From Flavobacteriaceae bacterium (GTDB lineage: Bacteria > Bacteroidota > Bacteroidia > Flavobacteriales > Flavobacteriaceae), in contig OZ241330.1 of NCBI GenBank assembly GCA_965200045.1, positions 293,888 through 357,887 on the forward strand: 64,000 nt of DNA, read 5' to 3'. Numbering within the stretch: the stretch's first letter is position 1; each line of letters begins with the position of its first letter. The notes beneath the pieces are model-generated. The model was not told the DNA's origin. It saw only the letters and a program-made list of their open reading frames with translations, and made no database searches. Made by a program: the position numbers and the translations under genes. This document shows, piece after piece, positions 1,436-56,930 of this stretch.

Positions 1436-1438
1436 TTG

Positions 1439-2800: not shown

Positions 2801-2908
2801 AGGGATCCGTTTTAATGATACCGATCGTATAAACTTCTTGAGATATCGGATCGTTTAGCAAGTGTTGATAAGAGGTATTTTGAGTGTTATATGTTAAAAA
2901 AAACAACC

Positions 2909-3222: not shown

Positions 3223-3414
3223 ACATAATTACTTTATGTCATACAAAGATGCCATAAGAAATACGGATTTATACCAAAGTGGTAAAAGCTGACTAAAAAT
3301 AGTTGAACATGGCAAATCCTATTTCACTAAATTTTCGTCAATGATTTGATGGTGCGTATTATCCTTCCATCACATCGAATCACACTTCAAAAAGAATTTT
3401 TGAGAAAGAAAAAA

Positions 3415-3834: not shown

Positions 3835-3858
3835 AAAAAAACAAACCAAAAAACAATT

Positions 3859-41068: not shown

Positions 41069-41698
41069 CTACTTTGCACCGAAGTTTTTCCAATATTCAA
41101 TCCACTCATTCCAAGGATTTGGATGCTTGATATTTTCAGTAATCCAATGAACAGGTAAAGACATGGTGTTGGAATGGTTTTTCATTGCCTTCGCTCCTTT
41201 GCTACTAATGGAGATTCCTCGATGGTTTGTTCCGAATGGGGTATCCAAGTATTTTTCTTTGCCGAGTTGTTTGAAAATTTCTTTCTGTACCGAAATAGGA
41301 AAGTAAAAGACACTTTCTTTTAGTTTCCCCCAAAATATGTTGATCAACAAAATGTCCTGTTTTGGTACGTAATTTTCATATTCCTTTTTCACTTTATCGG
41401 TGTCTGCTGTCCACAGAATTTTAAAGTTTCTTTCATTGGTTACTGTTTTGATGGATAACTTTTCGCCACAGAGCAATACATCGTAATCCCTTTCGATTCC
41501 AGATGCTGGAACCACCACATTTTCTTTTCCAAACTCGGATTCAAGAAAACCCAAAATAACGTGTTCTCTCAGCACACCAACAGCAGGATTGCTTCGTGGA
41601 AATCGATTGCGCACCATATCAAAAGCTACCGGAAGGCCTTTGGTCAAACGGTGTCTTTTTGAAGAATCGTTAAAGAGAGAAACCAAACATGGGTTCAT
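41069..41698 (-). CDS. putative type II restriction endonuclease
   Basis: It lies immediately downstream of, and overlaps by 4 nt, the methyltransferase gene. The segment ..ERDYDVLLCGEKLSIKT.. fits a PD-(D/E)xK core. Confidence 0.55.
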   Translation of the reverse strand: MNPCLVSLFNDSSKRHRLTKGLPVAFDMVRNRFPRSNPAVGVLREHVILGFLESEFGKENVVVPASGIERDYDVLLCGEKLSIKTVTNERNFKILWTADTDKVKKEYENYVPKQDILLINIFWGKLKESVFYFPISVQKEIFKQLGKEKYLDTPFGTNHRGISISSKGAKAMKNHSNTMSLPVHWITENIKHPNPWNEWIEYWKNFGAK

Positions 41699-42564
41699 GA
41701 TTCTGCTTTGATGCGTTTTATTGCAGTTGCTACATATTCCGATGAGGTATCGTACCCCACATAGTTCCTTCCAGAACGAAGTGAGGCTATTGCTGTGGTT
41801 CCTGATCCTATAAAAGGATCCAAAACGATTTCTCCATCAAACGTGTACAATTGAATCAGTCTTCTCGGTAATTCTATGGGAAAAGGTGCTGGATGATGGA
41901 CTCGTTTGGCAGACTCGGTAGGAAATTCCCACACACTTTTGGTGAAGTTTAGAAATTCTTCTTTGGTAATGGTGGATGCTTTGTTTTTGCTTTCTCTATG
42001 GAATTGATCTTTAGAAAAAACAAGTATGTATTCGTGGGTGTCTCTTAATACGGGATTGGATGCCGACTGCCAACTGCCCCAAGCACAAGATACACCGGCA
42101 CTTGCCGATTTATTCCAAATAATTTCTCCTCGCATGAGAAAGCCGATATCGATCATTTGTTTGCTAATCATGGCACTGAGTGGAATGTATGGTTTGCGTC
42201 CAATGTTGGCTACATTGATGCATGCTCTTCCTCCAGGAACAAGCACTCGATAGACTTCTTTCCATACCGAATGCAACAGTTCCAAATATTCGTTTTCGGT
42301 AAGGTTTTCATCGTATGCTTTACCGACATTGTATGGTGGTGATGTTACCATCAAATGAATAGAATTGTCTGGAATTTCGTGCATGGTAACACTAGAACGT
42401 TGGTAGATTTGATTCACTAGATGATGGGGACATATCTCTTCGAACTTTTCTAATTCTAGGGCTTTTGTGTTTCCATTATCATACATTTTTCGGTTGTAAA
42501 AACGAGATGCATCATGGTTCACTCGATTCGAAGTCCCAAAGGTTTGCATTTCGGTGGTTTTCAT
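41695..42564 (-). CDS. DNA methyltransferase, N4/N6 beta-class
   Basis: Motif IV VTSPPYNVGK comes first and motif I DPFIGSGTT is near the C-terminus. Confidence 0.9.
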   Translation of the reverse strand: MKTTEMQTFGTSNRVNHDASRFYNRKMYDNGNTKALELEKFEEICPHHLVNQIYQRSSVTMHEIPDNSIHLMVTSPPYNVGKAYDENLTENEYLELLHSVWKEVYRVLVPGGRACINVANIGRKPYIPLSAMISKQMIDIGFLMRGEIIWNKSASAGVSCAWGSWQSASNPVLRDTHEYILVFSKDQFHRESKNKASTITKEEFLNFTKSVWEFPTESAKRVHHPAPFPIELPRRLIQLYTFDGEIVLDPFIGSGTTAIASLRSGRNYVGYDTSSEYVATAIKRIKAES

Positions 42565-42647
42565 GTTTTAGAATTTTAGTGTTTTCTCACGCTTAAGTTG
42601 ATTCCCTTATTCCCTGACTTTTCTTACTAACAATATTCCTTATGGTT

Positions 42648-44831
42648 TTAAACTAAGAATGCCTTTTTAGTTTCATTAAACGCTCTATACAATTGTTCTG
42701 ATGTTTTCATAAGCCATTCAAAATAAATTTCTTGTTTGGATTTGTCATCTATATTTTCTACATCTGATACACAAAGAATTCTTGAAGCTCTTTTTTCTTT
42801 GAGTTCTTGCCATTGGATTTCTTCTTTAACAAAACTTTCAAAATATTCTCTATTCTGAAACATTTGGTGAAATAACGTCTTTTTCGATGGTATGTAAATT
42901 TCCGCACCAAATCGATTTTTATGATTGCCTTTTAAATACCTTAACAGAACCACAAGAGCTCCTTTTATTTTGTGATTAGGGATCACCAAACTACACCTAG
43001 GGTTTAATATTGCTTTTTCATAAGACAGTTCTGTTCCCCTTTGTCGGGTTTTCGAATAATCTTGGAATCGTTTCCAAAAATCCAAATGTTTTTTTTGAGA
43101 CGCTGAAAGAGTTGAATCTTTTTCATTTAAAGAAAGTTCGGTTGCTTCTTGATTGTCTATATGAGGATATTTCCAAATATTCTTTGCTGTTTGAGATAGT
43201 ATCTCAGCTCGTTTCGTTATCGTGTCTACATTCCAATAATCAATGATCTTCAGAAAATCGTTCAGTCGAAGAGGAGAATGGTTAAATCCATTTTGGTGTT
43301 CCTTTTTGTACTGGAAAGACCTGTTTCCATATTCGGAATTATACCCTGTCAATGTGAGATTTCCAATAGTATTTAAATATTTATTATGTATTCTTTCCCA
43401 ATCTTCTCCTATCATCTCTTTCCAATCATTACTATTTTCAATTTCTTGGGGCATGATGTGCTCTACCGTTAAACGCGGTGGAATTAATCTCTCCCTATTT
43501 CTATCCAATTCCTCTTCCATACGACGTAGGATATAGTTTCGAACATCTTGGATGATGTGATTGGAAGTAAAGTCTTCTAAAAACTGATCATTATTTCGAA
43601 ATTTATTTTTTCCAGAAAGTTTCGTGATTTCAGATTTAAAACTGATGATGTAACGGTTTTTATTAATTTTTGAATACAAGCTGGCAAACACTTGATTGAA
43701 TCCCTCTTTACGTCCAGTAAAAAGGACCTTTCGGATTATAAAACTTTCTATATAATCTAAGATCAATAAAAATTCACTTCTATTGATTATCTCCTTCTGA
43801 TAATCGTCATAGAGACCGAGAAATAAGGGATATGCCTGAGGAATTTTAATGTCTAAACAGCATTGAAATGCCTTATGTAAGTCTCTGTCCTGTTCTTTTC
43901 CAAGAGCAATGTTTAGATAGTATTGTGAAAATACTTGGATCTCTTTAATCAGTTTTATTTTACCTGCTATGTCCGCTACTCTTATGGTATGTTCTTTAAA
44001 ATCTTCGTAAACCCGTCTTTTTTTACCCCTTCCATTTTTGAGAATGAGATATCTCCATACAAACAAAGAAAAATCTTCATTAAACTTGTCACCAAACTCC
44101 TCTTCCATAGGTTCCCATATTTTTTCATGAATCTTTTTCTGTTCGTTTTTTGGCAACCACATGAATAACCAGTTTTTGATTTTTTCAGCATCCGTTAATA
44201 ATTGACCGGTACTATTAATCGTTTCAAACACTAGTTGCGGGTCATCTATGTTTTGTTCTAGTTCTATAGCGACAAGAGATAGTCGGTACAAACCACGATA
44301 CAACCAATCCACATTTTCTTCCTTTATTTCATTAACGAAAAATTGATAACACTGGTACAGTTCTTTTTTTTTATCCTGTTCCGATAGATTCAAATTCTTG
44401 ATTAGTTTGTTAAATACAACATCGTCTCTTTTGCTTAAGATTAATTTTCTTTTATCCTCCTCGGTTGAAATCCGATTAAATAGAAACTCTTCAATCATTT
44501 TTTCGATGACTTCGGAATCGTATCTTCTTGTTGCTTTAAAAAAATTGTATAATGAAAGCACTAGCGTTATTATGGTTGTCAGTCGTTGCTGTCCATCGAT
44601 TAAATGGTAGATTCCAGGACTAGCGTGTCTTCTTGGTCTTTCTACATAATACACTATCGATCCAAGATAATGTTGCGCTTCGGTGTCTTCTTTTTCTCCA
44701 ATAGTCAAAAAATCATCGAAGATTCTTTGCCAATTTTTTTTCGTCCAGGAATACGCCCTTTGATAAATAGGAATTACGTACTGACTACGTTCCTCCATCA
44801 ATCTTAAAACGTCAACTTTTTCTACCTGCAT
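42648..44831 (-). CDS. GmrSD-like type IV (modification-dependent) restriction enzyme: DUF262 + DUF1524 + DUF4268-like tail
   Basis: DUF262 motifs IPIYQRAYSW and IDGQQRLTT. A DUF1524 His-Me-finger region LTVEHIMPQ..IGNLTLTGYNSEYGNRSF. The C-terminal ~150 aa (..HLDFWKRF..AEIYIPSKK..IQWQELKEKRASRI..) resemble DUF4268. Confidence 0.85.
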   Translation of the reverse strand: MQVEKVDVLRLMEERSQYVIPIYQRAYSWTKKNWQRIFDDFLTIGEKEDTEAQHYLGSIVYYVERPRRHASPGIYHLIDGQQRLTTIITLVLSLYNFFKATRRYDSEVIEKMIEEFLFNRISTEEDKRKLILSKRDDVVFNKLIKNLNLSEQDKKKELYQCYQFFVNEIKEENVDWLYRGLYRLSLVAIELEQNIDDPQLVFETINSTGQLLTDAEKIKNWLFMWLPKNEQKKIHEKIWEPMEEEFGDKFNEDFSLFVWRYLILKNGRGKKRRVYEDFKEHTIRVADIAGKIKLIKEIQVFSQYYLNIALGKEQDRDLHKAFQCCLDIKIPQAYPLFLGLYDDYQKEIINRSEFLLILDYIESFIIRKVLFTGRKEGFNQVFASLYSKINKNRYIISFKSEITKLSGKNKFRNNDQFLEDFTSNHIIQDVRNYILRRMEEELDRNRERLIPPRLTVEHIMPQEIENSNDWKEMIGEDWERIHNKYLNTIGNLTLTGYNSEYGNRSFQYKKEHQNGFNHSPLRLNDFLKIIDYWNVDTITKRAEILSQTAKNIWKYPHIDNQEATELSLNEKDSTLSASQKKHLDFWKRFQDYSKTRQRGTELSYEKAILNPRCSLVIPNHKIKGALVVLLRYLKGNHKNRFGAEIYIPSKKTLFHQMFQNREYFESFVKEEIQWQELKEKRASRILCVSDVENIDDKSKQEIYFEWLMKTSEQLYRAFNETKKAFLV

Positions 44832-44849
44832 AGTGTTTGTTTCCCATGT

Positions 44850-45455
44850 TCAACTTCCCACATACTTCTTCACCTTCGTTACTGTTGCCAAAGAAACTCC
44901 CAAGCGTCCACTAATATCTCTGTAAGACTTTCCTTTTTGCAATAACGAAATGATCTTTTGTGTCTTAGGTTTCTTTAAAAAAGTTTCTCGACTTTCAACA
45001 GAACCGTAGTTTCTACCAAACTTTCCACCTCGTTGTTTGTAAGCTTCCCTTCCTTGACGAATCCGTTCCGAAATAGTGTCTCGTTCCAATTCATAAACAC
45101 TAGCCATGACCGATACCATCATTTTCCATATAGGATTGGGAGAACCATCGGCTTTGCGACTGGGGAGACCCAATTCCTTTACCACAATGTTAATGTGATT
45201 GGCTTCCAAATGATGGATGGTCTGGAGCACATCGGCCGTATTTCTTCCTAATCGGCTGAGATCATCCACCACGATTTCCGTGACTTTCTTTTCTTGGACT
45301 AATTGCCATAACTGAGACGCTTGGGGACGTTCTTTAAAGGGTATCGCACCAGAAACACCCTTGTCAAAAAGCGTTATATCATAAGTGTCTTTGTCGAGGT
45401 CAAATCGCTTGCCTTCTTGTTGGTAAGTGGAGGTTCGGTTATACTTGATATTCAA
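44850..45455 (-). CDS. serine recombinase (resolvase/invertase family)
   Basis: Catalytic region YNRTSTYQQ, ..VVDDLSRLGRNTADVL.. and a C-terminal HTH (KSYRDISGRLGVSLATVTKV). TTG start. Confidence 0.85.
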   Translation of the reverse strand: MNIKYNRTSTYQQEGKRFDLDKDTYDITLFDKGVSGAIPFKERPQASQLWQLVQEKKVTEIVVDDLSRLGRNTADVLQTIHHLEANHINIVVKELGLPSRKADGSPNPIWKMMVSVMASVYELERDTISERIRQGREAYKQRGGKFGRNYGSVESRETFLKKPKTQKIISLLQKGKSYRDISGRLGVSLATVTKVKKYVGS

Positions 45456-45475
45456 TTGAAATGTTTCAAATGAAT
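45450..45475. promoter_or_regulatory. 26-bp imperfect palindrome overlapping the recombinase start codon (candidate recombinase binding/crossover site or operator)
   Basis: attcaattgaaatgtttcaaatgaat has 22 of 26 positions symmetric, with perfect inner arms TTGAAA-TG-TTTCAA. This is the same size class as hix/gix-type sites. Confidence 0.3.
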
Positions 45476-45671
45476 ATCAAAGATATAATTTGAAACAAAA
45501 CAAGGAATAATGAATATTTAACACGCCTTCAAGTGTTACACTTTATATTATTAAAATAAATACGCAAGCATGAGTGTGGGAAATCAAATATGTTTATCCC
45601 ACTTCTGTTATTAGCGTACTAAAAAATAAAGTAGGAAAAATAATTGTTTCTTTCTCTTTTTGTCCTCACAT

Positions 45672-45775
45672 ATAAAAACCTAACCGAAAATTTCACATCT
45701 GAGATTTTAGAATTAGGTGATGAGTGGAATTTGATATTATATTCATTTCGATCAAGTGTTTTTCATTTTGGTGTA
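45672..45775 (+). repeat. copy C of the recombinase-associated repeat
   Basis: ..gagattttagaattaggtgatgagtggaatttgatatt..tttcattttggtg aligns by eye with copy B (gaggtttttagaattcaatgatgggaagattttgatgct..ttcgttttggta). It lies about 250 bp upstream of the intact recombinase gene. Confidence 0.45.
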
Positions 45776-46041
45776 ATTTAATGTCTCCAAAGAATTACAG
45801 TCGAACCTCTTTTTTATAGGGCTTATATACCTGAGTGCACAAAGGGAGCTAAAAAAAAGAAATTATTTTACCTTTTCAGGTGGCGTTGAGAATAGGAGTT
45901 TAGCCAATGCTTCTGGTGATTCAGCTGGTATCGATCGAGATAAGTTAAGTATATCCCTCGTTTTAGGACGGCCACGGGGATTGGATTTTGGTTTGGTTTT
46001 CATATTTACCGCAAATTTAGTGTTTTACTTAAAATTATCTT

Positions 46042-47466
46042 TCACTTCATATAACCTAATTTTTTGTTTTGTCTTCTAAGTCCAGAAAGAGTGTAAATAT
46101 TACTTTTTAGTTTATTACAAGGACCACAAAGTAAAAGTCTATTTGATATATGATTTATACCTCCATCACTTACTGGTATATTATGATCTAATTCTAAGTA
46201 CCTACAATCATTAAAGACTTTATCACATCCTTTACATTGATAACCTTGTTGATCTAATAAATGTTCAAACATTTCTTGACGACTCCATCTTTTACCTGGT
46301 GGTTCTTGAACTTTTACTTTAACTCTTAATTCAGAAGACTCTACCTTTCCATCATCTGTTCTAATTGGAACCTCTTTTTTGAAATGGACTTTTAAACAGG
46401 GAGTGTTTTTTGGAGTCTCTCCATCAATGTAAAAATTTTCATCACGCATTCTAGCTAAAATCACTTCTTCTGTTTTATCCCAAATATCTATTCCAACCCA
46501 TTTTCTACCTAAACTCTCAGCAGCTAAAATTGTTGTCGCACAACCACAAAACGGATCTAATACCATATCGTCAATTTGGGTTGCCGTTTCGATTATTCTC
46601 TTATAAAGTGTCATTGGTTTTTGTGTTGGATACCAAAAAGGCTCTGATGGATCATCACTTTTTCTTCGTTTTCTAATTGGGTTTATATCATTCCAATGAT
46701 CTTCTAATAAACGACCTCTTTCTTTTGATAAGAAAACTTCATCTAAATTCTTTGGAACTCGACCTTGATTCTTTCTAGATTTAAATTCATCAGGTCTTTG
46801 ATTTTTTAATTTTCTATACGTAATTTCTCCCTTTTCATCAAATAATGACCCAAATCTAGATATTGTCGTTTCAGAAAGAGGTCCTCTTGCTAATTTGCCT
46901 ATTCGTTTTTTTTTCGCGTTTTTAGCGTACCAAAAAATAGTATCATGTTTTGTCTTATAATAATCAGTGTTTCTTCCACCCCCGACATCTAAATAACACC
47001 AGACTATTTCATTACAAAAACTTTTTTTTCCAAAAATAGCATCTAATAAAATTTTTATATAATGTCCTACACTATAATCACAATGAAGAAATATGCTTCC
47101 AGTTTCCTTCAATATTCTTTTCATTTCAAGCAATCTTACAGCCATAAAACATAAAAAAGCACCTACGTCTGAGCCAACTTCATTTCTCTCTTTTTTTAGA
47201 TTTTCCTTAGTCTTCTTCATATGAATTTGATTAGCTGCATCGATTACTTCCCAAACATCTCTATAGCTATCATAGATTTCATCTAACCATTCTGACTTCA
47301 CATCTTTTTCCCAAGACCAACGATCTTGAAATCTAGCTGATTTATCTATTCTGTCAGGAGTAGCATGGAAATCCCTTCCTTTCTTAAAGGGAGGGTCTGT
47401 TGCAATTAAATCAACAGACTGATCATTCATCGATCTTAAAAATTTTAAATTATCGCCATGAAACAA
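46042..47466 (-). CDS. DNA methyltransferase (N4/N6 beta-class) fused to a C-terminal HNH nuclease; the natural ATG (47509) is out of frame
   Basis: Motif IV ATDPPF, motif I DPFCGCATT and a C-terminal HNH finger CKGCDK..LELDHNIPVSDGGINHISNRLLLCGPCNKLKSN. The track start is a TTG. The frame stays open upstream through the C9 tract. Confidence 0.85.
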   Translation of the reverse strand: MFHGDNLKFLRSMNDQSVDLIATDPPFKKGRDFHATPDRIDKSARFQDRWSWEKDVKSEWLDEIYDSYRDVWEVIDAANQIHMKKTKENLKKERNEVGSDVGAFLCFMAVRLLEMKRILKETGSIFLHCDYSVGHYIKILLDAIFGKKSFCNEIVWCYLDVGGGRNTDYYKTKHDTIFWYAKNAKKKRIGKLARGPLSETTISRFGSLFDEKGEITYRKLKNQRPDEFKSRKNQGRVPKNLDEVFLSKERGRLLEDHWNDINPIRKRRKSDDPSEPFWYPTQKPMTLYKRIIETATQIDDMVLDPFCGCATTILAAESLGRKWVGIDIWDKTEEVILARMRDENFYIDGETPKNTPCLKVHFKKEVPIRTDDGKVESSELRVKVKVQEPPGKRWSRQEMFEHLLDQQGYQCKGCDKVFNDCRYLELDHNIPVSDGGINHISNRLLLCGPCNKLKSNIYTLSGLRRQNKKLGYMK

Positions 47467-47488
47467 TGTGCGATTTTTCCAATTTTCA

Positions 47489-47497
47489 GGGGGGGGG
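47489..47497 (-). repeat. homopolymeric C9 tract (G9 on the plus strand) at the 5' end of the methyltransferase-HNH gene
   Basis: Counted directly: ..aattttca ggggggggg taaattg.. on the plus strand. Confidence 0.9.
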
Positions 47498-47519
47498 TAA
47501 ATTGCTCATTAATAGATAC

Positions 47520-48521
47520 TTATGACTTTTCTATAGTTTGATAATTCGGATTACTTTTCTTCAGCATTAGATACGTTAACCGTTTTCCTTCAAACCCTGA
47601 AGCCATTTGATTCATTTGCTCGGTCGTGTTCATCCCGCGCACATTATGTCGACCAGCAAATTCCGTCACGTAACGATCCAAATGCCAAGAAGATAGTTTG
47701 TGATAAGTCCCATAATAGCCACGTTTCAATAAAGACCAAAACGATTCAATGCCATTGGTGTGGACATCCCCATTGACCCATTCATTCACTGAATGTTTGA
47801 CTTTTTGGTGCATGTATTCTTTCACTAATTGATTGTACGAAGATAAATCATCGGTAAATACTTCTGTTCCCTTCTCGGTTGTTTCATTGACAAAATCCGT
47901 TAATGTCTTTGTTTTGGTGTTCTCCACCACTTGAGCTTGCACTTGATTGGTTTCCCGATTTTTAGCACCAGCGACAATCGTTTTACCAATAGCACCTCTT
48001 CCCGCTTTTAACTTCTTATCCGCATGTTTGTTTTTCTCTTTGCCGCCCATGTAGGTTTCATCCACTTCGGTTGGTCCAGAAAATAAGCATTGATTCACTT
48101 CCCATGTTTTTCTGATACGATGAGCTAAATGCCATGCAGCTTTCTGTGTAATCCCTAAATCACGATGTAATTTCATGCTAGAGACGCCTTTAATGCCTGT
48201 CGTTAAAATATAAACCGCGATTGCCCAGATACGATAACCCAATTTGGTATCCTGCATCACACTATTCACCCGCACACTAAAACGCTTCCGACAATCTCGA
48301 CAATGATAAGGCATGGATGGATGTTTTGTACCACTTAAAATATTAGTGGATCCACAATGAGGACACTTGGGTTGATGCCCCCATCGTTGAAAAGCAAACC
48401 ATTGTTCTGCTGTTTCATCATCAGGAAACATCTTCAATATCTGGAACCATGAAATCCCTTTGCGATGATACTTTCCTGGGGCGATTCCTTTTTGTTTTTG
48501 AGTTGTTTTTGGTTGATTCAT
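47520..48521 (-). CDS. IS1595-family transposase (zinc ribbon + ISXO2-like DDE domain)
   Basis: ..AEQWFAFQRWGHQPKCPHCGS..YHCRDCRKRFSV.. zinc ribbon, then ..VDETYMGGKEKN.. and ..HTNGIESFWSLLKRGYYGTYH.., typical of ISXO2-like transposases. The ORF is intact at 333 aa. Confidence 0.9.
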   Translation of the reverse strand: MNQPKTTQKQKGIAPGKYHRKGISWFQILKMFPDDETAEQWFAFQRWGHQPKCPHCGSTNILSGTKHPSMPYHCRDCRKRFSVRVNSVMQDTKLGYRIWAIAVYILTTGIKGVSSMKLHRDLGITQKAAWHLAHRIRKTWEVNQCLFSGPTEVDETYMGGKEKNKHADKKLKAGRGAIGKTIVAGAKNRETNQVQAQVVENTKTKTLTDFVNETTEKGTEVFTDDLSSYNQLVKEYMHQKVKHSVNEWVNGDVHTNGIESFWSLLKRGYYGTYHKLSSWHLDRYVTEFAGRHNVRGMNTTEQMNQMASGFEGKRLTYLMLKKSNPNYQTIEKS

Positions 48522-48780
48522 GATATCTATTTTTGTCTATTTGAATGCACAAATATACACTTTTTTCTGAAAGAATCGGTATGAAATCAAAAAAAACAAT
48601 CAATAAATCATCTTTATTTCGACCTACAAAATAGAGGTTATTTGATTTGCCGATAAGATCAATCTAAAAAATCAGTTACTTTTGAGCACTCAGGTATATA
48701 AGCCCCTTTTTTATGTCATGTTGTCATAATTTAAGTTTTTGTTAACATATGGCACGATTTTAGGCAATACACGTTTATAT

Positions 48781-49335
48781 ATGGAGAACCTTATTTCAAG
48801 AGAATTATTATTCAATACAAGACAGAAAAATCTACAGAGATCTAAAAAATTTTATCATAAAGCCATAGAGGGAAGAAAGAGAGAGAAAAAGTTCGATGAA
48901 GTATCCATCTTTCTTTCGCATAAACATGGCGAAACTGAATTAATAGAACAGATAATCGTATTGTTTGAAGACCTTGGGGTTTCTGTTTATATTGATTGGT
49001 TGGATTCAGAAATGCCAAAAACAACGAATGGTTCCACAGCAAAAAGAATAAAAGAAAAAATCCGAAGTTGCGATAAGTTCATCTTTTTAGCAACCGAAAG
49101 GGCCATTTCTTCGAAATGGTGTAATTGGGAATTAGGCTATGGAGATTCTCAAAAGTTCTTCGAGAATATTGCAGTGATACCAATTACAGAAAAACCTAAA
49201 CAAGTCTATTCAGGCAATGAATATTTAGAGATATATCCAATTATTACTTCTCAGAACAGTTATTCTATTGGTGGTGAATTTTATCTTGAATTTGAAGATG
49301 AGAAAACTGAACTTTCAGATTGGTTAAAATCGTAG
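48781..49335 (+). CDS. TIR-domain protein
   Basis: ..VSIFLSHKHGETELIEQIIVLFEDLGVSVYIDW..IKEKIRSCDKFIFLATERAISSKWCNWELGYGD.. is a TIR-type beta-alpha pattern. ATG 48781 is preferred over the track's TTG 48739. Confidence 0.75.
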   Translation: MENLISRELLFNTRQKNLQRSKKFYHKAIEGRKREKKFDEVSIFLSHKHGETELIEQIIVLFEDLGVSVYIDWLDSEMPKTTNGSTAKRIKEKIRSCDKFIFLATERAISSKWCNWELGYGDSQKFFENIAVIPITEKPKQVYSGNEYLEIYPIITSQNSYSIGGEFYLEFEDEKTELSDWLKS

Positions 49336-49338
49336 ATT

Positions 49339-49773
49339 ATGAATAATAACGAGGTATTACACAAAGAAATTGATTTAATTCAAAACGTCATTTCTAGAAT
49401 GGCGAATAACTCCTTTCTTTTGAAAGGTTGGATGGTTGCAATCATTGTTGGGGTTTCAGTATTGACTCATGATTCATTAGTTACTGACGATAGTATTTAC
49501 TTTTCTTTAATTCTTGTTTTACCTGTTTTTGTTTTTTGGTATTTAGATGCATTTTTCCTTCACAAAGAAAAGTGCTATCGAAAACTTTACGAATGGGTTG
49601 TTAAAAACAGACATAAGACAAACAAAAACTTGTACTCTCTTGATTATACCCCTTTTGAAGGCAAAGTAGATTCGATACTAAAAATAATGTTCTCTAAAAC
49701 TTTAAGAGTGTTTTATGTTATACCTATTATCATATTTATAGCAATAATTTTATACAATATTTTAAATGGGTAA
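49339..49773 (+). CDS. small 3-TM membrane protein (candidate effector or anchor of the TIR operon)
   Basis: 144 aa with an N-terminal amphipathic helix and hydrophobic spans GWMVAIIVGVSVL, IYFSLILVLPVFVFWYLDAFFL and YVIPIIIFIAIILYNIL. There is a 3-nt gap to the upstream ORF and an 8-nt overlap with the downstream ORF. Confidence 0.7.
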   Translation: MNNNEVLHKEIDLIQNVISRMANNSFLLKGWMVAIIVGVSVLTHDSLVTDDSIYFSLILVLPVFVFWYLDAFFLHKEKCYRKLYEWVVKNRHKTNKNLYSLDYTPFEGKVDSILKIMFSKTLRVFYVIPIIIFIAIILYNILNG

Positions 49774-50446
49774 GAAAATATTTGTTTCGTATAAATACGC
49801 TGACACTTTGGTTGAACGACTATCCGAAGTGAGTTTGGAAGAACAAACAACTCCAAGGGATTATCTTAATATTTTTGAGAATACTATCGAGAACAAGGAT
49901 GATATTTACAAAGGAGAATCGGATGATGAAGACCTAGGCGACTTATCTAAGTCTACAATTGAAGATAAGTTAAAAGATAGAATACGTGATAGTACTATTA
50001 CTGTGGTCTTGATTTCAAAAGGAATGAAAGAAAACAGTAAATCTGAAAAGGAGCAATGGATTCCCTGGGAAATAAGTTATTCTTTAAAAGAAATATCAAG
50101 AGGGGGTAGAAAAAGTTTAACAAATGCCGTTTTAGCCGTTGTATTACCTGATAATTGTGGATCTTATGATTATTTTGTGCAAAAAGACGTGCAATGTGGC
50201 TGTCAAACTCTAATTGTATCCTTTCTTTTTCCGATTATGAGAAAGAATATGTTTAATATAAAAAATCCTAATACAAGGGAGTGTAATTGTGGTCGTTCAA
50301 ATGTATACTTTGATGATTATCCATCGTATATCTATACTATCGTATGGAAAGACTTTATCTTGAGTTATAATAAATATATCGATATTGCCGTTTCTCTTTT
50401 TGATAAGAGAGATAGATATAACATATCCAAAGAATTAGAGGACTAG
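49766..50446 (+). CDS. ThsB-like TIR-like (DUF1863-type) protein with Cys-rich C-terminus
   Basis: KIFVSYKYAD..IRDSTITVVLISKGMKENSKSEKEQWIPWEISY.. follows the DUF1863/ThsB pattern. The tail is ..QCGCQ..ECNCG.. Confidence 0.7.
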   Translation: MGKKIFVSYKYADTLVERLSEVSLEEQTTPRDYLNIFENTIENKDDIYKGESDDEDLGDLSKSTIEDKLKDRIRDSTITVVLISKGMKENSKSEKEQWIPWEISYSLKEISRGGRKSLTNAVLAVVLPDNCGSYDYFVQKDVQCGCQTLIVSFLFPIMRKNMFNIKNPNTRECNCGRSNVYFDDYPSYIYTIVWKDFILSYNKYIDIAVSLFDKRDRYNISKELED

Positions 50447-50568
50447 CACATAAGTATTAAAGATTCGGAAAAAACCATTTCTAGCTCCACATTGTTTGAC
50501 TATTAGTTGTCTTTGTTGTTTTTGGAACACTACGATTCTCAACTGTAGCTTACACTTCAAATAAAGAT

Positions 50569-51417
50569 TTAAATATTAGAAAAGTTATCTGAACCATCTA
50601 ATTGTATCACATATCGAAATCGAACTTCATCATTTTGATCGCCACGAGTGTCGTCTTTAATTCCCAGTATCTGAATGGCTGCGTAAAGGCCTTCCATATT
50701 TTTTAGTATGGCAATCTGATTCATCTCGACCGTTCGGCATCTCGAAGTGAAATTCAAATTTTTAGCTTCCGTGACATCTGAAATTGTCTGAATTTCTTTT
50801 TGAACCAATGCAACTCCTTGAATTGAAAGCGGATCGTTGTAAAGATGAATACGTGTATGACTTGCCTTACTCCACATTGTTTCAAATTTGGCTTTTCCGG
50901 AACCTATGACGCATCTTCCATTGTAATTGCTGTAGTCAAATGTAATTTCTCCTTGTGAATTTTTTATTCTTGGGGGAGGAATATTCGAATCTTTTCCACG
51001 TAAGTGTCGAAATCCGAGTTTCTCCGCCATTTCTTTTGCTAAAAGTTGAGAAGTCGGATAATCTCTAACTTTTAAATATTGAATATCCTGATCCAAACCA
51101 GGTAATATAGAATCATCAAACCGTACAGGGAGTATTTTTACTTGATTCTCGCTCATTGCCTTCATAGAATGCTCTGCTTCTAATCTTGGCCATTTCTTGG
51201 AACAGTAATCCTTTGAAATAAATAAGACAACATAGTTGCTTTTTTCAGCATAAATGTATTCCGTGATTTCAGTTAATGATTGACCCCAGTGAGCATTTTT
51301 GCTATGAATATCATAATAAACGCTCATACCGCTTGATAATAGGAAATTTGCTATGACTTCAATATAATCTCTCTGTTCTCCAGCAAAAGATAACGCTACA
51401 TCATATCGTTTATTCAT
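50569..51417 (-). CDS. TIR-domain protein with ~140-aa unassigned C-terminal domain
   Basis: The N-terminus YDVALSFAGEQRDYIEVIANFL..YVVLFISKDYCSKKWPRLEAEH.. is a classic bacterial TIR. The C-terminal half looks beta-rich and has no recognised family. Confidence 0.85.
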   Translation of the reverse strand: MNKRYDVALSFAGEQRDYIEVIANFLLSSGMSVYYDIHSKNAHWGQSLTEITEYIYAEKSNYVVLFISKDYCSKKWPRLEAEHSMKAMSENQVKILPVRFDDSILPGLDQDIQYLKVRDYPTSQLLAKEMAEKLGFRHLRGKDSNIPPPRIKNSQGEITFDYSNYNGRCVIGSGKAKFETMWSKASHTRIHLYNDPLSIQGVALVQKEIQTISDVTEAKNLNFTSRCRTVEMNQIAILKNMEGLYAAIQILGIKDDTRGDQNDEVRFRYVIQLDGSDNFSNI

Positions 51418-52915
51418 TTTGAGATTGGATCATTTCATTAAAATCAAATTCTTTAAGTGTGGGATGAAATGGTTCATATGTGCGTTTTAAACGATTCCAA
51501 TAGTTTCTTCCTTCTTCATAGCTGCCAATGTTTAGTACATATCGGTCGATAATGGCAAGAAGTATTTCTCGAGCTTCATAAACAATATCCTGTGAATACG
51601 ATTTCAAACTTTCCCTTTTTGATTTTGTCGAATGTACTTGCATATTTCTCAAATTGACTACAGCTTCTGAAACAGACATCTTCTTGGATTTACTAAACTT
51701 CTGAAAGTCATCTGATATTTGATTCTCATCCAGATTTATTCCAATATATGTGCAAAGCATTTGAATTTTGGAAGCCGCACTAATTCTCTCACCATCGTTT
51801 TTAGTCACCATTTTAAGTTTGTCAAATAAGATCCAATTCCAAAGTAATTCAATACCTACCTGTGCTAATATGAGACTTCCCTCCGTATGCCCTTGATTCG
51901 AATTCGCCTCAATATACCAATGAAGAAGATCTGATAATGCTTGTTCATCATCTTCCGTTTTTCTAATCTCATGCATTTGCTCTATAAATCTTGAATTAAC
52001 CCACGTATCATCACAAATTGGTTTGATAACGTCTTTATAGGGGCGAAATTTGGTATAATATGATATCTGAGAATCAATTAATGTGTTCTCATCATAAAAT
52101 TCGACAAAGACCATTCCAATATGACTTCTAGCAAAAAAACTCAAGCAAAATCTAAGTGTGTTTAAAACATTTCTTGCTTCATCAATCGTCATTCCTGATT
52201 CGAAGTTCATATACCCATGGTGGGTGATACAATGTCCACTGGCGTTTTTAAGGTCTTTTAATATTTTATCTTTTAAGTCATATCGACCATCAATTACTAC
52301 TTCTACTCCATTGGAAATTGAAAATCTGAGTCGATTTCGCTTCGATCTAAGTTTTCCATTGTCTTTGTTTTGAGTGATTTCACCGTAACTAAATGGTAGA
52401 TTAGTTATTGAAAATTCAACTTTTTGAACTAGTTTATTATCGTCGTCCTCTATTTCTTTTTCTTGAACAACTCCTTGAAAAATACCTTGACGGCCTAAAT
52501 GGCTTATGGTACTAGAACCAAAAAGTATTGGAATGGTTCCTAACAATTTATCACAAACAAAAACATCCACTGATTCTTGACCTAAGAAATACTCTAAAAC
52601 ATTTTCTTCATCTGAATATTTTATTTCTAATACCATCCTTGGACAAGGATGCCAATCAAATTGAATTTCACCTTGTTTAAACTTAAGCTCAAGAGATGTT
52701 TGGTTAAAGGCCGATATAGTAACATCTTTCAGCGTTTTTCCTATCTGTTCTTCCAACGTTATGTTCCAGTTGTCTAAGGTTTTAACGATGGTATCATATG
52801 GGAATCTCAATGAAACATATCCTTGATGTATTAATATGGCTTCATTGACGTCTTTGTTTAGATGTTTACGATCAAACAGCTTCGGCACGTTCTTAAAAAG
52901 GTATTCTACATCCAT
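51410..52915 (-). CDS. 501-aa protein with HEPN-like C-terminal domain (Rx4H), possibly ApeA-like
   Basis: There is an 8-nt overlap with the downstream TIR gene. The C-terminal ~150 aa look helical and contain ..VVNLRNMQVHSTK.. (R-x4-H). The size and layout recall ApeA-type HEPN proteins. The N-terminal ~330 aa are unassigned. Confidence 0.5.
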   Translation of the reverse strand: MDVEYLFKNVPKLFDRKHLNKDVNEAILIHQGYVSLRFPYDTIVKTLDNWNITLEEQIGKTLKDVTISAFNQTSLELKFKQGEIQFDWHPCPRMVLEIKYSDEENVLEYFLGQESVDVFVCDKLLGTIPILFGSSTISHLGRQGIFQGVVQEKEIEDDDNKLVQKVEFSITNLPFSYGEITQNKDNGKLRSKRNRLRFSISNGVEVVIDGRYDLKDKILKDLKNASGHCITHHGYMNFESGMTIDEARNVLNTLRFCLSFFARSHIGMVFVEFYDENTLIDSQISYYTKFRPYKDVIKPICDDTWVNSRFIEQMHEIRKTEDDEQALSDLLHWYIEANSNQGHTEGSLILAQVGIELLWNWILFDKLKMVTKNDGERISAASKIQMLCTYIGINLDENQISDDFQKFSKSKKMSVSEAVVNLRNMQVHSTKSKRESLKSYSQDIVYEAREILLAIIDRYVLNIGSYEEGRNYWNRLKRTYEPFHPTLKEFDFNEMIQSQNE

Positions 52916-53018
52916 ATTATCGAATTTCCATATTGAGTCTCATGAATAGAAACCATGAATCATCGACTTTAAAGATCAATTCAAAAAATCGCAAAAGCTT
53001 TTTCATCAAACCATGAAT

Positions 53019-53390: not shown

Positions 53391-56300
53391 CTATAACGTC
53401 TCCGGATCAATATCAAATAGATTCATGGTTTGATTAAAACGCTCTGACATTTGATTTTGAAATTCAGTAGTATCATTAGCCTCTATCATATCGACCAGAT
53501 TACTATACCTAGCAAGAATATCTGTCAGTTGATTAATGTATAATTCAAAACTTTCATCAGGAATACGCGTATAAACTTCTGCTCTCGAAGCGTATTGTTG
53601 CGCGATCTTGAGTGCAATTTCTTGAGCTTTTTGGATGGCCCCACTTTGGTAATAGGCATCGACAAATTCGGACATGGGGGTGTAGAACTCATATGCTCCA
53701 TATAGGTCGGTAAATGGGGTCGTGCTTTGGATAAATTGATCTATATAGGATTCGTATTTCTCAATATCTGCATTCTCAAAAATGGTTCTCAAACCGGTTC
53801 GATATCTTTCGATTTCAGTTAAAATTTCCGAAAGAATCATATTCTGTCGATTAAACGATAATGAACTGAAATAAGCCAATCGACCGGCATATTTTTCAGA
53901 AATTTTTTCAAATAAGTCCCTAGCCTTTTGGGGTTTGCCAATTTTGTAAAAAGTGTCTATAAAAGGATGTAATAAGGAGTAATAACCAAAAAAATCAATA
54001 GGCATTTTTTTTAATGCCAATTCAATAACCTCTTGGGCTTTATTAAATTGTTCTTCTTTAACTAATTGATTAGCAAGACGTGCAATATGGCTTCTATAGG
54101 TGATGCTATTTTTACGCGTTTCGGGGTCATGATAGATCTTGGGGTCTTCTGAATTTCCCCATTCCCATTGCATGACAATGGAATGCATTTTTTCTGAATC
54201 GATTTTTCCCATTAAATATGGATTGGATGGGTCTAATGGTGTTTTAATCGGAACTAATTTATACACCATCCCTTCTAGTTCAAGATACTCTTTCATCCAA
54301 ATATATTCGGAAGCTTCAAAACTTCCTCCAGTAAAATAAATGGGTCTTTTCCAATCGTTATTAGCTAAAATATCCAACATCATGACCTGATTTTTCGTAA
54401 GTCCAGAAGTCGGTAGATCAATATCGATATGTGAAACAATTTTAGATTCATTTTCAGGTCTAACAATCCCATATTTTAAAACATTTTCTTTATTAACGGG
54501 AACTCGGATTTTATTGGTTGGGTAGTAAATCATTTCTTGCTGGCTCAATGGTAAGTACGAAAAGTCGGGCTCCATTTCTTCTAATACATGACGGTATTTC
54601 GTTTTAGGATGATCACTTGATATCCAATTGACAAAGTCTTTGATATCCCAACGAATGGTATCATTAACCGGATGAAATCGAACATATTCTCGAGTACCAT
54701 AGGCATATTGTTCATGAGTCAATTGAGAAGGAATGGGATCGCTTTCATAAGTTTTCCTTTTCATTTGATCGATGTACCAATAGGTAGCCAGTAATGAAGT
54801 ATTGATAGTTCGAACATCGGTTCGAATGCCTTCAATTTCTTGAGCATACCAAAGCGAAAAAGTGTCATTATCACCGATAGTGAATATCATGGTTCCCGCA
54901 TCCTCTTGAAGTGACTTCAAATAGGTTTTGGACATCGATTGAGCCGTATAACGATTGGATCGATCATGATCATCCCAATTTTCAGCAAACATCAAAACAG
55001 GCACACACAATAGTGCAACCAAGACCATCAGAGGCCGCATCAAATGTGGTTTGAAACGTTGCCAAAGCCCGGTCAAATAGTACGCGCCCAAGCTAATCCC
55101 AATAGAAAACACATAAAAAGATCCAACCAAAGCATAATCCCGTTCTCTAGGTTCAAAAGGACGTTCATTTAAATATACTTTGAGTGCTAAACCGGTAAAT
55201 AAAAATAAAAGCAAGAGTTTCCAAAAGGTTTTTTTATCTTGATTATACAGAAAAATAAAGCCCAAAAGACCTAGCAAAAGAGGTAGAAAATAGTAAGTAT
55301 TGCGTGCTTTGTTGTTTAAGGTATCTTGATCTAAAGCCGATTGATTCCCCAGTCTCACTTTGTCTATAAATGGGATTCCACTAATCCAATTCCCATGCAA
55401 AATGGAATAATCTCCTTGGATATCGTTTTGACGTCCTGTAAAATTCCACATAAAATAACGCCAGTACATATAGCCCATTTGAAAATTGAGCAGAAAGGCC
55501 AAATTATCAATCAGTGTGGGTTTTGATATTTCCAAATACCTTCCATAGGACCTAAAAAAATCATCATAATCTTCTCCTGTCAATAATCCTTGTTGCCCTC
55601 GAAGCTGAAAGTCACTAATAATACTTCGTAATTGCTGACTAGCCCCATATTCGGGTAAGATTGAAAATTCTAGCGGCCCAATAAAGTTCATATAGTTCGC
55701 CGCGTTCTGAGTACTCCAAAGTCTAGGAAGCAGTCCTTTATGGTCTGAATGGCTATTGATTCGAGCCCCTTGCCAATTATTAACTACCACATATCGCCTA
55801 TTTTCTAGATCTTTTTCATACTTGGGTTTATCATCTCGAAATGGTTTGGCTGGATCTTGGCCAGCGTACATATCTGAAAACATGGGACCATAAAACAGAT
55901 ACGTATCTGGATATTGTTCCATTCTATAGTAAGCTAAAAGAGTCCTTGCATCGGAAGGGTCATTTTGGTTGATAACCGTATTGGCATTGGCTCGAATGGG
56001 AAGCATCATCCATGAAGAAAAACCAATGAAGAGAAATAAAACACACAAAAAGGCTGTATTCAAATGCACCCAATTTTTTTTTGCTGTCAAGCGAAGGGAC
56101 AGCACAAAAACCAGAGCAATCAATAAACCGGCAAAAATGGTCCCACTATTAAAGGGGAGCCCCAAAGTATTAACAAAAAACACTTCCGTTTCACCGAAAA
56201 AGGCTAGCGTATTAGGCAGTAATAATTTGAATATAAATAATAAGATGGCAATGGATATTACATTGGCCAGCAAAAATCCTTTGACCGTGGTTTTGGAGAA

Positions 56301-56930
56301 ATTTTTGAAATAGTATACCAGCCCAATCGTGGGGATGGCTAACAGAGCCATAAAATGCACCCCAAATGAAAAACCAATTATTAGTGACATCAATACTAAC
56401 CATTTATAACCCCTTGGTTTGAACATATCTTTTTCCCAACGCAATGCCAACCAAAACAAGGTGGCTAGAAAACACATGGCCATGGCATACACTTCGGCTT
56501 CTACAGCATTAAACCAAAAACTATCCGAAAAACAAAAGGCTAACGATCCGACAGTAGCACTGCCCCAAAAAGAGATTTTTGATGGCAGATTGTTTAATGT
56601 AGAAAATGTTGGTAATTTCCTGAGCAGGATTGTAGTGGTCCAAAACATAAAAAGTACAGTAAATGCACTTGAAATGACCGACATAAAGTTGACCATTAGG
56701 GCAACTTTTTCTGGACTTGAAGCAAAGGTTGCAAAAAAGGCTCCCACCATCTGAAAAAATGGGGCCCCCGGAGGGTGTCCTACTTGCAGTTTTGCTGCAG
56801 TGGATATGTATTCACTGGCATCCCAAAAGCTTGAAGTGGGTTCAACAGTCAACCCAAATGTAATCAGAGCAATAATGAAAATAGACCAACCCCAGATATT
56901 ATTCCAGCGTTTGTAAATATTTTCATTCAT
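53391..56930 (-). CDS. DUF2723-domain membrane protein (glycosyltransferase-like) with TPR-like C-terminal region
   Basis: ..LTVEPTSSFWDASEYISTAAKLQVGHPPGAPFFQMVG.. is the hallmark DUF2723 N-terminus. It has more than 10 TM helices and a long soluble helical C-terminus. Confidence 0.85.
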   Translation of the reverse strand: MNENIYKRWNNIWGWSIFIIALITFGLTVEPTSSFWDASEYISTAAKLQVGHPPGAPFFQMVGAFFATFASSPEKVALMVNFMSVISSAFTVLFMFWTTTILLRKLPTFSTLNNLPSKISFWGSATVGSLAFCFSDSFWFNAVEAEVYAMAMCFLATLFWLALRWEKDMFKPRGYKWLVLMSLIIGFSFGVHFMALLAIPTIGLVYYFKNFSKTTVKGFLLANVISIAILLFIFKLLLPNTLAFFGETEVFFVNTLGLPFNSGTIFAGLLIALVFVLSLRLTAKKNWVHLNTAFLCVLFLFIGFSSWMMLPIRANANTVINQNDPSDARTLLAYYRMEQYPDTYLFYGPMFSDMYAGQDPAKPFRDDKPKYEKDLENRRYVVVNNWQGARINSHSDHKGLLPRLWSTQNAANYMNFIGPLEFSILPEYGASQQLRSIISDFQLRGQQGLLTGEDYDDFFRSYGRYLEISKPTLIDNLAFLLNFQMGYMYWRYFMWNFTGRQNDIQGDYSILHGNWISGIPFIDKVRLGNQSALDQDTLNNKARNTYYFLPLLLGLLGFIFLYNQDKKTFWKLLLLFLFTGLALKVYLNERPFEPRERDYALVGSFYVFSIGISLGAYYLTGLWQRFKPHLMRPLMVLVALLCVPVLMFAENWDDHDRSNRYTAQSMSKTYLKSLQEDAGTMIFTIGDNDTFSLWYAQEIEGIRTDVRTINTSLLATYWYIDQMKRKTYESDPIPSQLTHEQYAYGTREYVRFHPVNDTIRWDIKDFVNWISSDHPKTKYRHVLEEMEPDFSYLPLSQQEMIYYPTNKIRVPVNKENVLKYGIVRPENESKIVSHIDIDLPTSGLTKNQVMMLDILANNDWKRPIYFTGGSFEASEYIWMKEYLELEGMVYKLVPIKTPLDPSNPYLMGKIDSEKMHSIVMQWEWGNSEDPKIYHDPETRKNSITYRSHIARLANQLVKEEQFNKAQEVIELALKKMPIDFFGYYSLLHPFIDTFYKIGKPQKARDLFEKISEKYAGRLAYFSSLSFNRQNMILSEILTEIERYRTGLRTIFENADIEKYESYIDQFIQSTTPFTDLYGAYEFYTPMSEFVDAYYQSGAIQKAQEIALKIAQQYASRAEVYTRIPDESFELYINQLTDILARYSNLVDMIEANDTTEFQNQMSERFNQTMNLFDIDPETL

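What the first reader, a model, noticed from the sequence alone, without database searches (positions are those of the whole stretch)
48739..50446. TIR / 3-TM / ThsB-like TIR operon: Thoeris-like layout without any recognisable signal-sensing effector domain
Three plus-strand ORFs are translationally coupled, with a 3-nt gap at 49336-49338 and an 8-nt overlap at 49766-49773. ORF1 has a TIR core (VSIFLSHKHGE..VYIDW..FIFLATERAISSKWCNWELGYGD). ORF3 has the DUF1863/ThsB-type pattern (KIFVSYKYAD..TVVLISKG..EQWIPWEISY) plus a Cys-rich tail. Between them lies a 144-aa protein that is essentially one amphipathic helix plus three hydrophobic spans. Known Thoeris systems pair TIR (ThsB) signal producers with a ThsA effector that carries SIR2-SLOG or TM-Macro. 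Here the only non-TIR partner has no room for SLOG, Macro or SIR2. One reading is that the small membrane protein is a minimal, perhaps SLATT-like, membrane-disrupting effector gated by a TIR product or by direct TIR contact. The other is that the TIRs deplete NAD themselves and the TM protein is an anchor or sensor. Both TIRs keep a Glu where TIR NADases have the catalytic residue (assigned by eye: ..NWELG.., ..PWEIS..). I do not recognise this 3-gene architecture as a named system.
Basis: partly seen in the sequence, partly recalled or inferred. Interest (0 to 1): 0.8.

Follow-up and report, generated by a model that had tools for sequence, protein, structure and literature searches.

The report
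Type V Thoeris with two TIRs
The three genes are a real anti-phage operon, but it belongs to the recently named "type V Thoeris" system: two TIR sensor enzymes flank a small membrane protein (ThsF) that responds to their signal. It is therefore an ordinary member of a known kind.

Summary
Three tightly coupled + strand genes encode a TIR protein (48739/48781-49335), a 144-aa protein with three transmembrane helices (49339-49773) and a ThsB-type TIR protein (49766-50446).

The novelty claim does not hold. The 144-aa protein is 43% identical (E 1e-31) to the gene directly downstream of the experimentally validated type V Thoeris ThsB of Bacillus thuringiensis DAR 81934. That gene is the effector ThsF (Yirmiya et al., bioRxiv Dec 2025). 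ORF2 also matches PADLOC's candidate family PDC-M50A (E 9e-40).

Both TIRs are 48-72% identical to TIR domains that the preprint lists under type V, and both keep the invariant catalytic Glu.

In 89 ThsF-family loci with enough flank, 75 have an adjacent same-strand TIR gene and 26 have one on each side. The window's own combination is the commonest two-sided form.

The likely mechanism, by homology, has three steps. A ThsB senses phage and makes a cyclic ADP-ribose signal (3'cADPR in the validated system). The signal binds oligomeric ThsF. ThsF then damages the membrane and aborts infection.

"Unnamed architecture" and "SLATT-like" are not.

A separate TIR + YopA-like gene pair lies next door on the minus strand. 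It is rare and uncharacterised.

The parts
48739..49335 (+). thsB (first TIR gene; TIR_2-type, preprint TIR cluster 2612357774). The probable true start is ATG 48781, giving 184 aa. The catalytic Glu is E131 (numbered from TTG 48739) in the motif KWCNWELGYGD.
   Evidence: Pfam TIR_2 E 2.6e-10. PADLOC ThsB PDLC00423 E 2e-53. 72% identical to the TIR domain of IMG 2709405277, listed 'DUF2270 - Type V', and 35% to the validated Bacillus sp. 1NLA3E type V ThsB, with E131 invariant. Start-codon inference.
49339..49773 (+). thsF (type V Thoeris effector; PADLOC PDC-M50A): 144 aa, an N-terminal amphipathic helix plus 3 TM helices and a basic cytoplasmic segment at 74-119. Conserved motifs are HKEIDLIQ..I.RMA.NSFLLKGW and FWYLDAFFLHKEKCYRKLY.
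   Evidence: 43% identity, E 1e-31, to the gene directly downstream of the validated B. thuringiensis DAR 81934 ThsB. PDC-M50A E 8.7e-40. AF2 model pLDDT 84. Hydropathy. Family of 4111 50%-identity clusters. Adjacent TIR genes in 75/89 loci.
49766..50446 (+). thsB (second TIR gene; ThsB_TIR/DUF1863-type, preprint TIR cluster 2742576382) with a C-terminal extension of about 100 aa carrying two semi-conserved Cys (C144, C173). The catalytic Glu is E102 in the motif QWIPWEISYSL.
   Evidence: Pfam ThsB_TIR E 6.4e-7. PADLOC ThsB PDLC00428 E 2e-72 over the full length. 48-56% identical to TIRs listed 'DUF2270 - Type V'. E102 invariant in 39/39.

Best explanation
The trio is a type V Thoeris anti-phage system in a thsB-thsF-thsB layout, sitting in a defence island of a Flavobacteriaceae-like genome. 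The mechanism below is inferred by homology to the validated B. thuringiensis system and is not shown for this locus. Each TIR protein (ThsB) stays idle until it senses a phage cue. Two different ThsB families probably widen the range of phages that are sensed. An activated ThsB uses its conserved catalytic Glu to convert NAD+ into a cyclic ADP-ribose isomer, most likely 3'cADPR. The signal binds the cytoplasmic face of the 144-aa membrane protein ThsF, which is both sensor and effector. The binding site is probably a basic pocket between protomers of a ring-shaped homo-oligomer, formed by the conserved N-terminal amphipathic helix and the segment after TM2. Ligand binding opens or distorts the assembly, the membrane is breached, and the infected cell stops growing before phage progeny are released.
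For: Shown here. ORF2 is 43% identical (E 1e-31, 134 aa) to the 141-aa gene immediately downstream of a protein 100% identical to the validated B. thuringiensis DAR 81934 type V ThsB. The preprint's Table S2 gives consecutive IMG gene IDs for that ThsB and its effector. Both ORF2 and that protein hit the same four PADLOC PDC-M50A models over their full length. ORF1 and ORF3 are 72% and 48-56% identical to TIR domains listed under 'DUF2270 - Type V' in Table S1. The catalytic Glu is invariant in both TIR families. TIR genes sit next to ThsF homologues in 75 of 89 loci, on both sides in 26, and the window's ORF1-type/ORF3-type pairing is the commonest two-sided form with 12 cases. TIR-ThsF pairs also occur on Klebsiella, Escherichia, Priestia, Lactiplantibacillus and haloarchaeal plasmids. 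The preprint's DefenseFinder table lists three-gene 'ThsF, ThsB, ThsB' systems. From the preprint: type V systems defend B. subtilis against phages. Their ThsBs make 3'cADPR only on infection. Added 3'cADPR is toxic only to cells that carry the system. The Tad1 sponge abolishes defence. ThsF has 3 TM helices and AF3 models it as a heptameric channel with basic inter-protomer pockets. Type V is enriched in Bacteroidota. Topology inference: the 74-119 segment has 10 K/R against 5 D/E, and the most conserved residues lie in the N-terminal helix and just after TM2.
Against: Nothing has been tested on this locus, so defence, the signal identity and the ThsF oligomer are all inferred. In the preprint, 3'cADPR did not trigger toxicity in the second validated type V system, Bacillus sp. 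1NLA3E, whose ThsB belongs to the same TIR cluster as ORF1. The true ligand for this branch may therefore differ, or a second input may be needed. That TIR cluster also contains type IV TIRs, which make N7-cADPR. The preprint's 'DUF2270/PF10028' label could not be reproduced with hmmscan for ORF2, for 69 relatives or for the validated ThsF. The Foldseek search of the PDB gave no informative match. The Vibrio cholerae type V system tested in E. coli gave no defence.
Confidence: 0.85

Rival explanations
1. It has the type V architecture but a different or composite signal. The ThsF of this Bacteroidota branch would be gated by a molecule other than 3'cADPR, or would need products or contact from both ThsB proteins. 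The two TIRs would then be obligate partners rather than redundant sensors.
For: 3'cADPR did not activate the Bacillus sp. 1NLA3E type V system, whose ThsB is in the same cluster as ORF1. The ORF1-type plus ORF3-type pair recurs around ThsF in 12 loci, and the same two TIR clusters flank the type IX effector of Paenibacillus macerans. TIR cluster 2612357774 spans systems that use different signals.
Against: ThsF homologues work with a single ThsB in the validated systems. They occur with only an upstream or only a downstream TIR in 49 of 89 loci, so neither TIR family is obligatory for the family as a whole. Multiple ThsB genes per Thoeris locus are usually explained as a broader sensing range (established knowledge from type I Thoeris; the preprint shows multi-ThsB islands).
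Confidence: 0.15
2. The TIRs are the toxic effectors, depleting NAD+, and the 144-aa membrane protein is only an anchor or sensor.
For: Both TIRs keep the catalytic Glu. TIR NADase effectors exist in other defence systems, and the preprint concedes this possibility for unverified types.
Against: In the homologous validated system, ThsB expressed alone accumulates 3'cADPR on infection. Exogenous 3'cADPR is toxic only when the system is present, and a 3'cADPR sponge cancels defence. Close relatives of both TIRs occur with SIR2-SLOG, caspase-like and TIR-SLOG effectors, which marks them as signal producers.
Confidence: 0.04
3. ORF2 is a divergent SLATT-family pore former, so the locus is really a type VII-like (cADPR/SLATT) Thoeris.
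For: It is a small TM protein next to TIRs. Two of 69 family members give weak hits (best E 0.003) to CyanoTRADDas_TM, a 2-TM conflict-system domain.
Against: There is no hit to any Pfam SLATT model for ORF2 or the 69 relatives at E <= 1. There is direct 43% identity to validated ThsF. The preprint separates ThsF (type V) from the SLATT effector ThsH (type VII).
Confidence: 0.03
4. The operon is an inactive remnant in a decaying defence island.
For: An IS1595 transposase lies directly upstream. Relatives L155 and L156 have lost the trio except for the last 24 codons of ORF3. In L001 my ORF scan found no intact ORF1-sized reading frame although tblastn still finds the ORF1 region.
Against: All three ORFs are intact with tight coupling. 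Catalytic and family-invariant residues are kept. A 93%-identical (DNA) copy in L157 has all three genes called.
Confidence: 0.05

Closest known systems
Type V Thoeris (ThsB + ThsF), Yirmiya et al., bioRxiv 10.64898/2025.12.03.692087 (Dec 2025)
   Same: The effector is a ThsF homologue: 43% identity to the validated B. thuringiensis ThsF, the same length, and 3 TM helices. It has adjacent TIR/ThsB genes of the same TIR clusters listed for type V. It comes from Bacteroidota, where type V is enriched. Three-gene ThsF + 2 ThsB systems appear in the preprint's DefenseFinder output.
   Different: The validated examples have one ThsB upstream of ThsF, whereas here two different ThsB genes flank ThsF. 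The signal for this branch is untested. The 'DUF2270' Pfam label could not be reproduced here for any member.
PADLOC-DB v2 candidate system PDC-M50 (PDC-M50A + PDC-M50B)
   Same: ORF2 matches all four PDC-M50A models (best E 8.7e-40), as does the validated ThsF (E 1.8e-48). PDC-M50B matches TIR-type proteins: ORF3 hits it weakly.
   Different: PDC-M50 is an untested bioinformatic candidate. ORF3 matches PDC-M50B only weakly (E 0.009) and both TIRs score far better on PADLOC's ThsB models.
Type I Thoeris (ThsA SIR2-SLOG + one or more ThsB)
   Same: TIR signal producers, often several per locus. 3'cADPR is the signal. ORF1's TIR cluster also contains type I ThsBs.
   Different: There is no SIR2 or SLOG domain. 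The effector is a 144-aa membrane protein rather than an NADase.
Type II Thoeris (ThsB + TM-Macro effector) and type VII Thoeris (ThsB + SLATT effector)
   Same: A TIR-made nucleotide signal gates a membrane-embedded effector. In loci L021-L023 the same trio sits directly beside a type II system.
   Different: ORF2 has no Macro domain and no SLATT match. The signals in those types are His-ADPR and canonical cADPR.

Membership tests
Type V Thoeris | The effector is a ThsF-family protein, homologous to the experimentally validated ThsF. | tested here: met
   BLASTP of ORF2 against L024:3773-4198, the gene after the 100%-identical validated ThsB: 43% identity over 134 aa, E 1e-31. Both proteins match the same PADLOC models.
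Type V Thoeris | At least one TIR-domain ThsB gene lies adjacent, in the same operon. | tested here: met
   There are two, with a 3-nt gap and an 8-nt overlap. 75/89 family loci have an adjacent same-strand TIR.
Type V Thoeris | The ThsB TIR keeps the catalytic Glu needed for signal synthesis. | tested here: met
   E131 (ORF1) is invariant in 42/42 and E102 (ORF3) in 39/39. Both align with the Glu of validated ThsBs.
Type V Thoeris | The effector has three transmembrane helices. | tested here: met
   Hydropathy peaks at about 29-47, 51-73 and 120-143. The AF2 model has pLDDT 84.
Type V Thoeris | The effector is annotated Pfam PF10028 (DUF2270). | tested here: inconclusive
   There is no PF10028 hit for ORF2, for 69 relatives, or for the validated ThsF itself. 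The criterion therefore does not discriminate with this Pfam copy.
Type V Thoeris | ThsF forms a ring-shaped homo-oligomer (heptamer model) with basic ligand pockets. | not testable with these tools
   Only monomer prediction was available. The basic 74-119 segment and the conserved N-terminal helix are compatible with it.
Type V Thoeris | Phage-induced 3'cADPR synthesis, signal-induced effector toxicity, and anti-phage defence. | not testable with these tools
   These are experimental. They are shown only for the B. thuringiensis homologue in the preprint.
Type V Thoeris | Passes the DefenseFinder Thoeris_V ThsF HMM gathering threshold. | not tested
SLATT-effector systems (type VII Thoeris / CBASS SLATT) | The effector matches a SLATT profile. 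| tested here: not met
   There is no SLATT family among the Pfam hits of ORF2 or 69 relatives at E <= 1.
Type II Thoeris | The effector carries a Macro domain after its TM helices. | tested here: not met
   ORF2 is 144 aa with no Macro hit. A genuine ThsA_Macro gene sits beside the trio in L021-L023 as a separate system.
PADLOC PDC-M50 | A PDC-M50A protein plus a PDC-M50B protein. | tested here: inconclusive
   A is met strongly (E 8.7e-40). B is met only weakly by ORF3 (E 0.009), while the ThsB models score far better.

The most novel reading that the evidence does not exclude
In this Bacteroidota branch, the recurrent ORF1-type/ORF3-type ThsB pair around ThsF is not redundant. The two TIRs would together generate, or sequentially modify, a ligand other than 3'cADPR. 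That would explain why 3'cADPR failed to trigger the Bacillus sp. 1NLA3E type V system and would reveal a two-enzyme TIR signalling step.
Probability: 0.12. Interest if true: 0.6.

Novelty: already known. Interest (0 to 1): 0.15.

Why it matters
As an instance of type V Thoeris, the locus adds little beyond another Bacteroidota example. Its remaining value is practical. It is a compact, intact thsB-thsF-thsB cassette of the commonest two-TIR configuration. That makes it a reasonable substrate for three open questions: what ThsF binds, how a 144-aa protein both senses a nucleotide and breaches the membrane, and whether paired ThsBs broaden phage recognition. The rare TIR + YopA-like pair next door is the less-charted item in this region.

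Tried and rejected
- **Pfam, NCBIfam and the PDB sequence search on ORF2** gave nothing informative. NCBIfam returned only a far-below-cutoff hit of ORF1 to a type III Thoeris ThcB4 model.
- **Foldseek of the AF2 monomer against the PDB** returned only generic helical noise, with best E 1.6.
- **The DUF2270 (PF10028) label** was tested on ORF2, on 24 and then 69 relatives, and on the validated ThsF. There was never a hit, so I dropped Pfam membership as a criterion and used direct homology to the validated effector instead.
- **SLATT relationship:** rejected, with no profile hits.
- **A literature search for 'PDC-M50'** found nothing.
- **The sigma-70 promoter and intrinsic terminator scan** of 48.4-50.7 kb was not above the shuffled expectation. 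It is also not suited to Bacteroidota promoters, so no regulatory element is claimed.
- **Is the minus-strand 282-aa TIR a third ThsB of the same system?** Rejected as unlikely. It is translationally coupled to its own partner, and in L155 and L156 it persists without the trio.
- **The genome-contig scan** used a single sequence rather than an alignment and returned only 11 loci. The metagenome and viral scans with alignment A2 made up for that.

Full report
**Observation**

The junctions are a 3-nt gap and an 8-nt ATGGGTAA overlap.

ORF1 matches Pfam TIR_2 (E 2.6e-10). ORF3 matches Pfam ThsB_TIR (E 6.4e-7). ORF2 has no Pfam family.

Hydropathy and an AlphaFold2 model (pLDDT 84) agree on ORF2's layout:
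- an N-terminal amphipathic helix;
- three hydrophobic helices at about 29-47, 51-73 and 120-143;
- a basic segment at 74-119.

- ORF1 most likely begins at ATG 48781 (184 aa). Homologue N-termini align to residue 15 or 17, and the 93%-identical (DNA) locus L157 has a 184-aa gene call.
- Only two of the five Cys in ORF3's tail are conserved: C144 in 30/39 and C173 in 33/39 homologues.

**What it is**

PADLOC's library gave the first lead. ORF2 matches all four models of the candidate family PDC-M50A (best E 8.7e-40). ORF1 and ORF3 match ThsB models at E 2e-53 and 2e-72.

A literature search then led to Yirmiya et al. (bioRxiv 10.64898/2025.12.03.692087, Dec 2025). That preprint defines Thoeris types V-XI. 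Type V pairs a TIR ThsB with a small three-TM effector, ThsF, which the authors label DUF2270. The B. thuringiensis DAR 81934 system uses 3'cADPR. ThsF is modelled as a heptameric channel, and the type is enriched in Bacteroidota.

Table S1 of the preprint lists TIR domains under 'DUF2270 - Type V' that resemble both window TIRs:
- 72% identity to ORF1 (IMG 2709405277);
- 48-56% identity to ORF3 (IMG 2525848798 and 2509795226).

The authors warn that Table S1 labels are noisy. Pfam also gave no DUF2270 hit for ORF2 or for 69 diverse relatives. I therefore tested the link directly:
- The Table S1 sequence of the validated B. thuringiensis ThsB retrieved a 100%-identical protein, P0270.
- Its contig carries a 141-aa gene immediately downstream. 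This corresponds to the effector with the consecutive IMG gene ID in Table S2.
- ORF2 is 43% identical to that protein over 134 residues, E 1e-31, and the shared motifs lie outside the TM spans.
- That protein hits the same PDC-M50A models. It also lacks any PF10028 hit.

ORF2 is therefore a ThsF homologue, and the trio is a type V Thoeris system.

**Family and neighbourhood**

The ThsF family is large: 4111 clusters at 50% identity with E <= 1e-3.

On plasmids, tblastn hits for ThsF and for the B. thuringiensis-type ThsB fall on the same replicons, side by side. Hosts include Klebsiella, Escherichia, Priestia, Terribacillus, Lactiplantibacillus and haloarchaea.

I collected 153 loci from genomes, plasmids, metagenomes and viral contigs. 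TIR genes were detected with a reference set taken from the preprint's Table S1. Among the 89 ThsF loci with at least 900 bp on both sides:
- 75 have a same-strand TIR gene within 400 bp;
- 22 have one upstream only;
- 27 have one downstream only;
- 26 have one on both sides.

The window's combination, ORF1-type upstream and ORF3-type downstream, is the commonest two-sided form with 12 cases. The sample does lean towards relatives of the window protein.

The preprint's DefenseFinder table also contains three-gene 'ThsF, ThsB, ThsB' systems, and its text describes islands with many ThsB and ThsF genes. The two-TIR layout is therefore within what is already described.

**Mechanism (inferred by homology)**

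1. A ThsB senses infection.
2. It uses its catalytic Glu to make a cyclic ADP-ribose isomer from NAD+. The Glu is E131 in ORF1 and E102 in ORF3, each invariant in its family.
3. ThsF binds the signal on its cytoplasmic side and disrupts the membrane.

The most conserved ThsF residues are K9, E10, Q15, R20, S25, F26, K29, W31, F66, W67, D70, E77 and Y84. They lie in the N-terminal helix and just after TM2. By the positive-inside rule both regions face the cytoplasm, which suits a nucleotide pocket.

Two ThsB families most simply mean a wider sensing range. This explanation comes from type I Thoeris and was not tested here.

The main uncertainty is the ligand. 3'cADPR did not trigger the second validated type V system, Bacillus sp. 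1NLA3E, whose ThsB is in ORF1's TIR cluster.

**Rivals**

- The 'TIR as NADase effector' reading is contradicted by the sponge, feeding and TIR-alone experiments on the homologous system.
- SLATT membership is not supported.
- Decay is unlikely, because the ORFs are intact and the key residues conserved.

**Context**

The trio lies in a defence island of lower GC content (31% for the trio against 36.5% for the window). The island contains:

| Coordinates | Strand | Content |
|---|---|---|
| 41069-42564 | - | ThaI-type restriction-modification pair |
| 42648-44831 | - | GmrSD |
| 44850-45455 | - | resolvase |
| 46042-47466 | - | methyltransferase-HNH fusion |
| 47520-48521 | - | IS1595 transposase |
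| 48739-50446 | + | type V Thoeris trio |
| 50569-52915 | - | 282-aa TIR_2 protein coupled to a 501-aa YopA-like protein |

The minus-strand pair is a separate module. In L155 and L156 it sits at the same chromosomal site without the trio, of which only the last 24 codons of ORF3 remain.

**Verdict**

Novelty: already known. Interest: low.

Noticed in passing
window 50569-51417 (-) and 51410-52915 (-): This is a second TIR module, convergent with the trio. A 501-aa YopA-like protein is translationally coupled, by an 8-nt overlap, to a 282-aa TIR_2 protein that has an unassigned C-terminal half. The YopA-like assignment rests on precomputed Pfam YopA_M and YopA_C hits on its homologues, and the protein gives a weak HEPN_Apea hit (E 0.0025). 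Only 3 protein clusters match the 501-aa protein at E <= 1e-5 in the 5.8-billion-protein database. The pair persists without the Thoeris trio in L155 and L156. It could be an uncharacterised TIR-associated defence pair.
   Followed up: partly
window 41069-48521: A defence-island stretch lies upstream of the trio. It holds a ThaI-type REase plus MTase (41069-42564), GmrSD with a DUF4268 tail (42648-44831), a serine resolvase (44850-45455), an N6/N4 methyltransferase fused to HNH (46042-47466) and an IS1595 transposase (47520-48521). The metallophosphoesterase gene (36161-37381) and the TMEM260-like gene (53391-56930) appear to be the conserved flanks of a variable hotspot, because the same two genes bracket a shorter island in L155.
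   Followed up: partly
L024:3773-4198 (validated B. thuringiensis ThsF) and window 49339-49773: The preprint's 'DUF2270 / PF10028' label for ThsF is not reproduced by hmmscan against this Pfam-A copy, even for the validated ThsF. Its only hit is a weak full-length match to PF24838 '8xMP, octameric membrane protein family' (E 0.012). This may point to a remote relationship worth an HHpred check.
   Followed up: partly
L021, L022, L023 (about 1850-5113 in L021): The same TIR_2 - ThsF - ThsB_TIR trio sits directly downstream of a type II Thoeris pair (ThsA_Macro + ThsB_TIR). The result is a five-gene, two-effector, three-TIR Thoeris cluster.
   Followed up: no
L004, L006, L007, L008 (about 400-4430): In Saprospiraceae and Lewinellaceae loci the ThsF homologue has no adjacent TIR that my reference set detected. 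It is instead preceded by a conserved 322-326-aa protein of unknown family, and in L004, L006 and L008 by a protein of about 730 aa that looks like a TIR fused to an ATPase. This may be a variant ThsF architecture.
   Followed up: no
L106-L153 (IMG/VR contigs); plasmid hits H16-H30: ThsF homologues occur on 48 viral or prophage contigs and on many conjugative Klebsiella and Escherichia plasmids. The system is therefore carried by mobile elements across Bacteroidota, Bacillota, Pseudomonadota and haloarchaea.
   Followed up: no
L001 3410-3988: In the closest genome relative, a Flavobacteriaceae MAG with 90% DNA identity across window 48757-52963, my ORF scan found no intact ORF1-sized reading frame, although tblastn still finds the ORF1 region. 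The neighbouring TIR and YopA-like ORFs are also shortened. This is either pseudogenisation or assembly indels.
   Followed up: no
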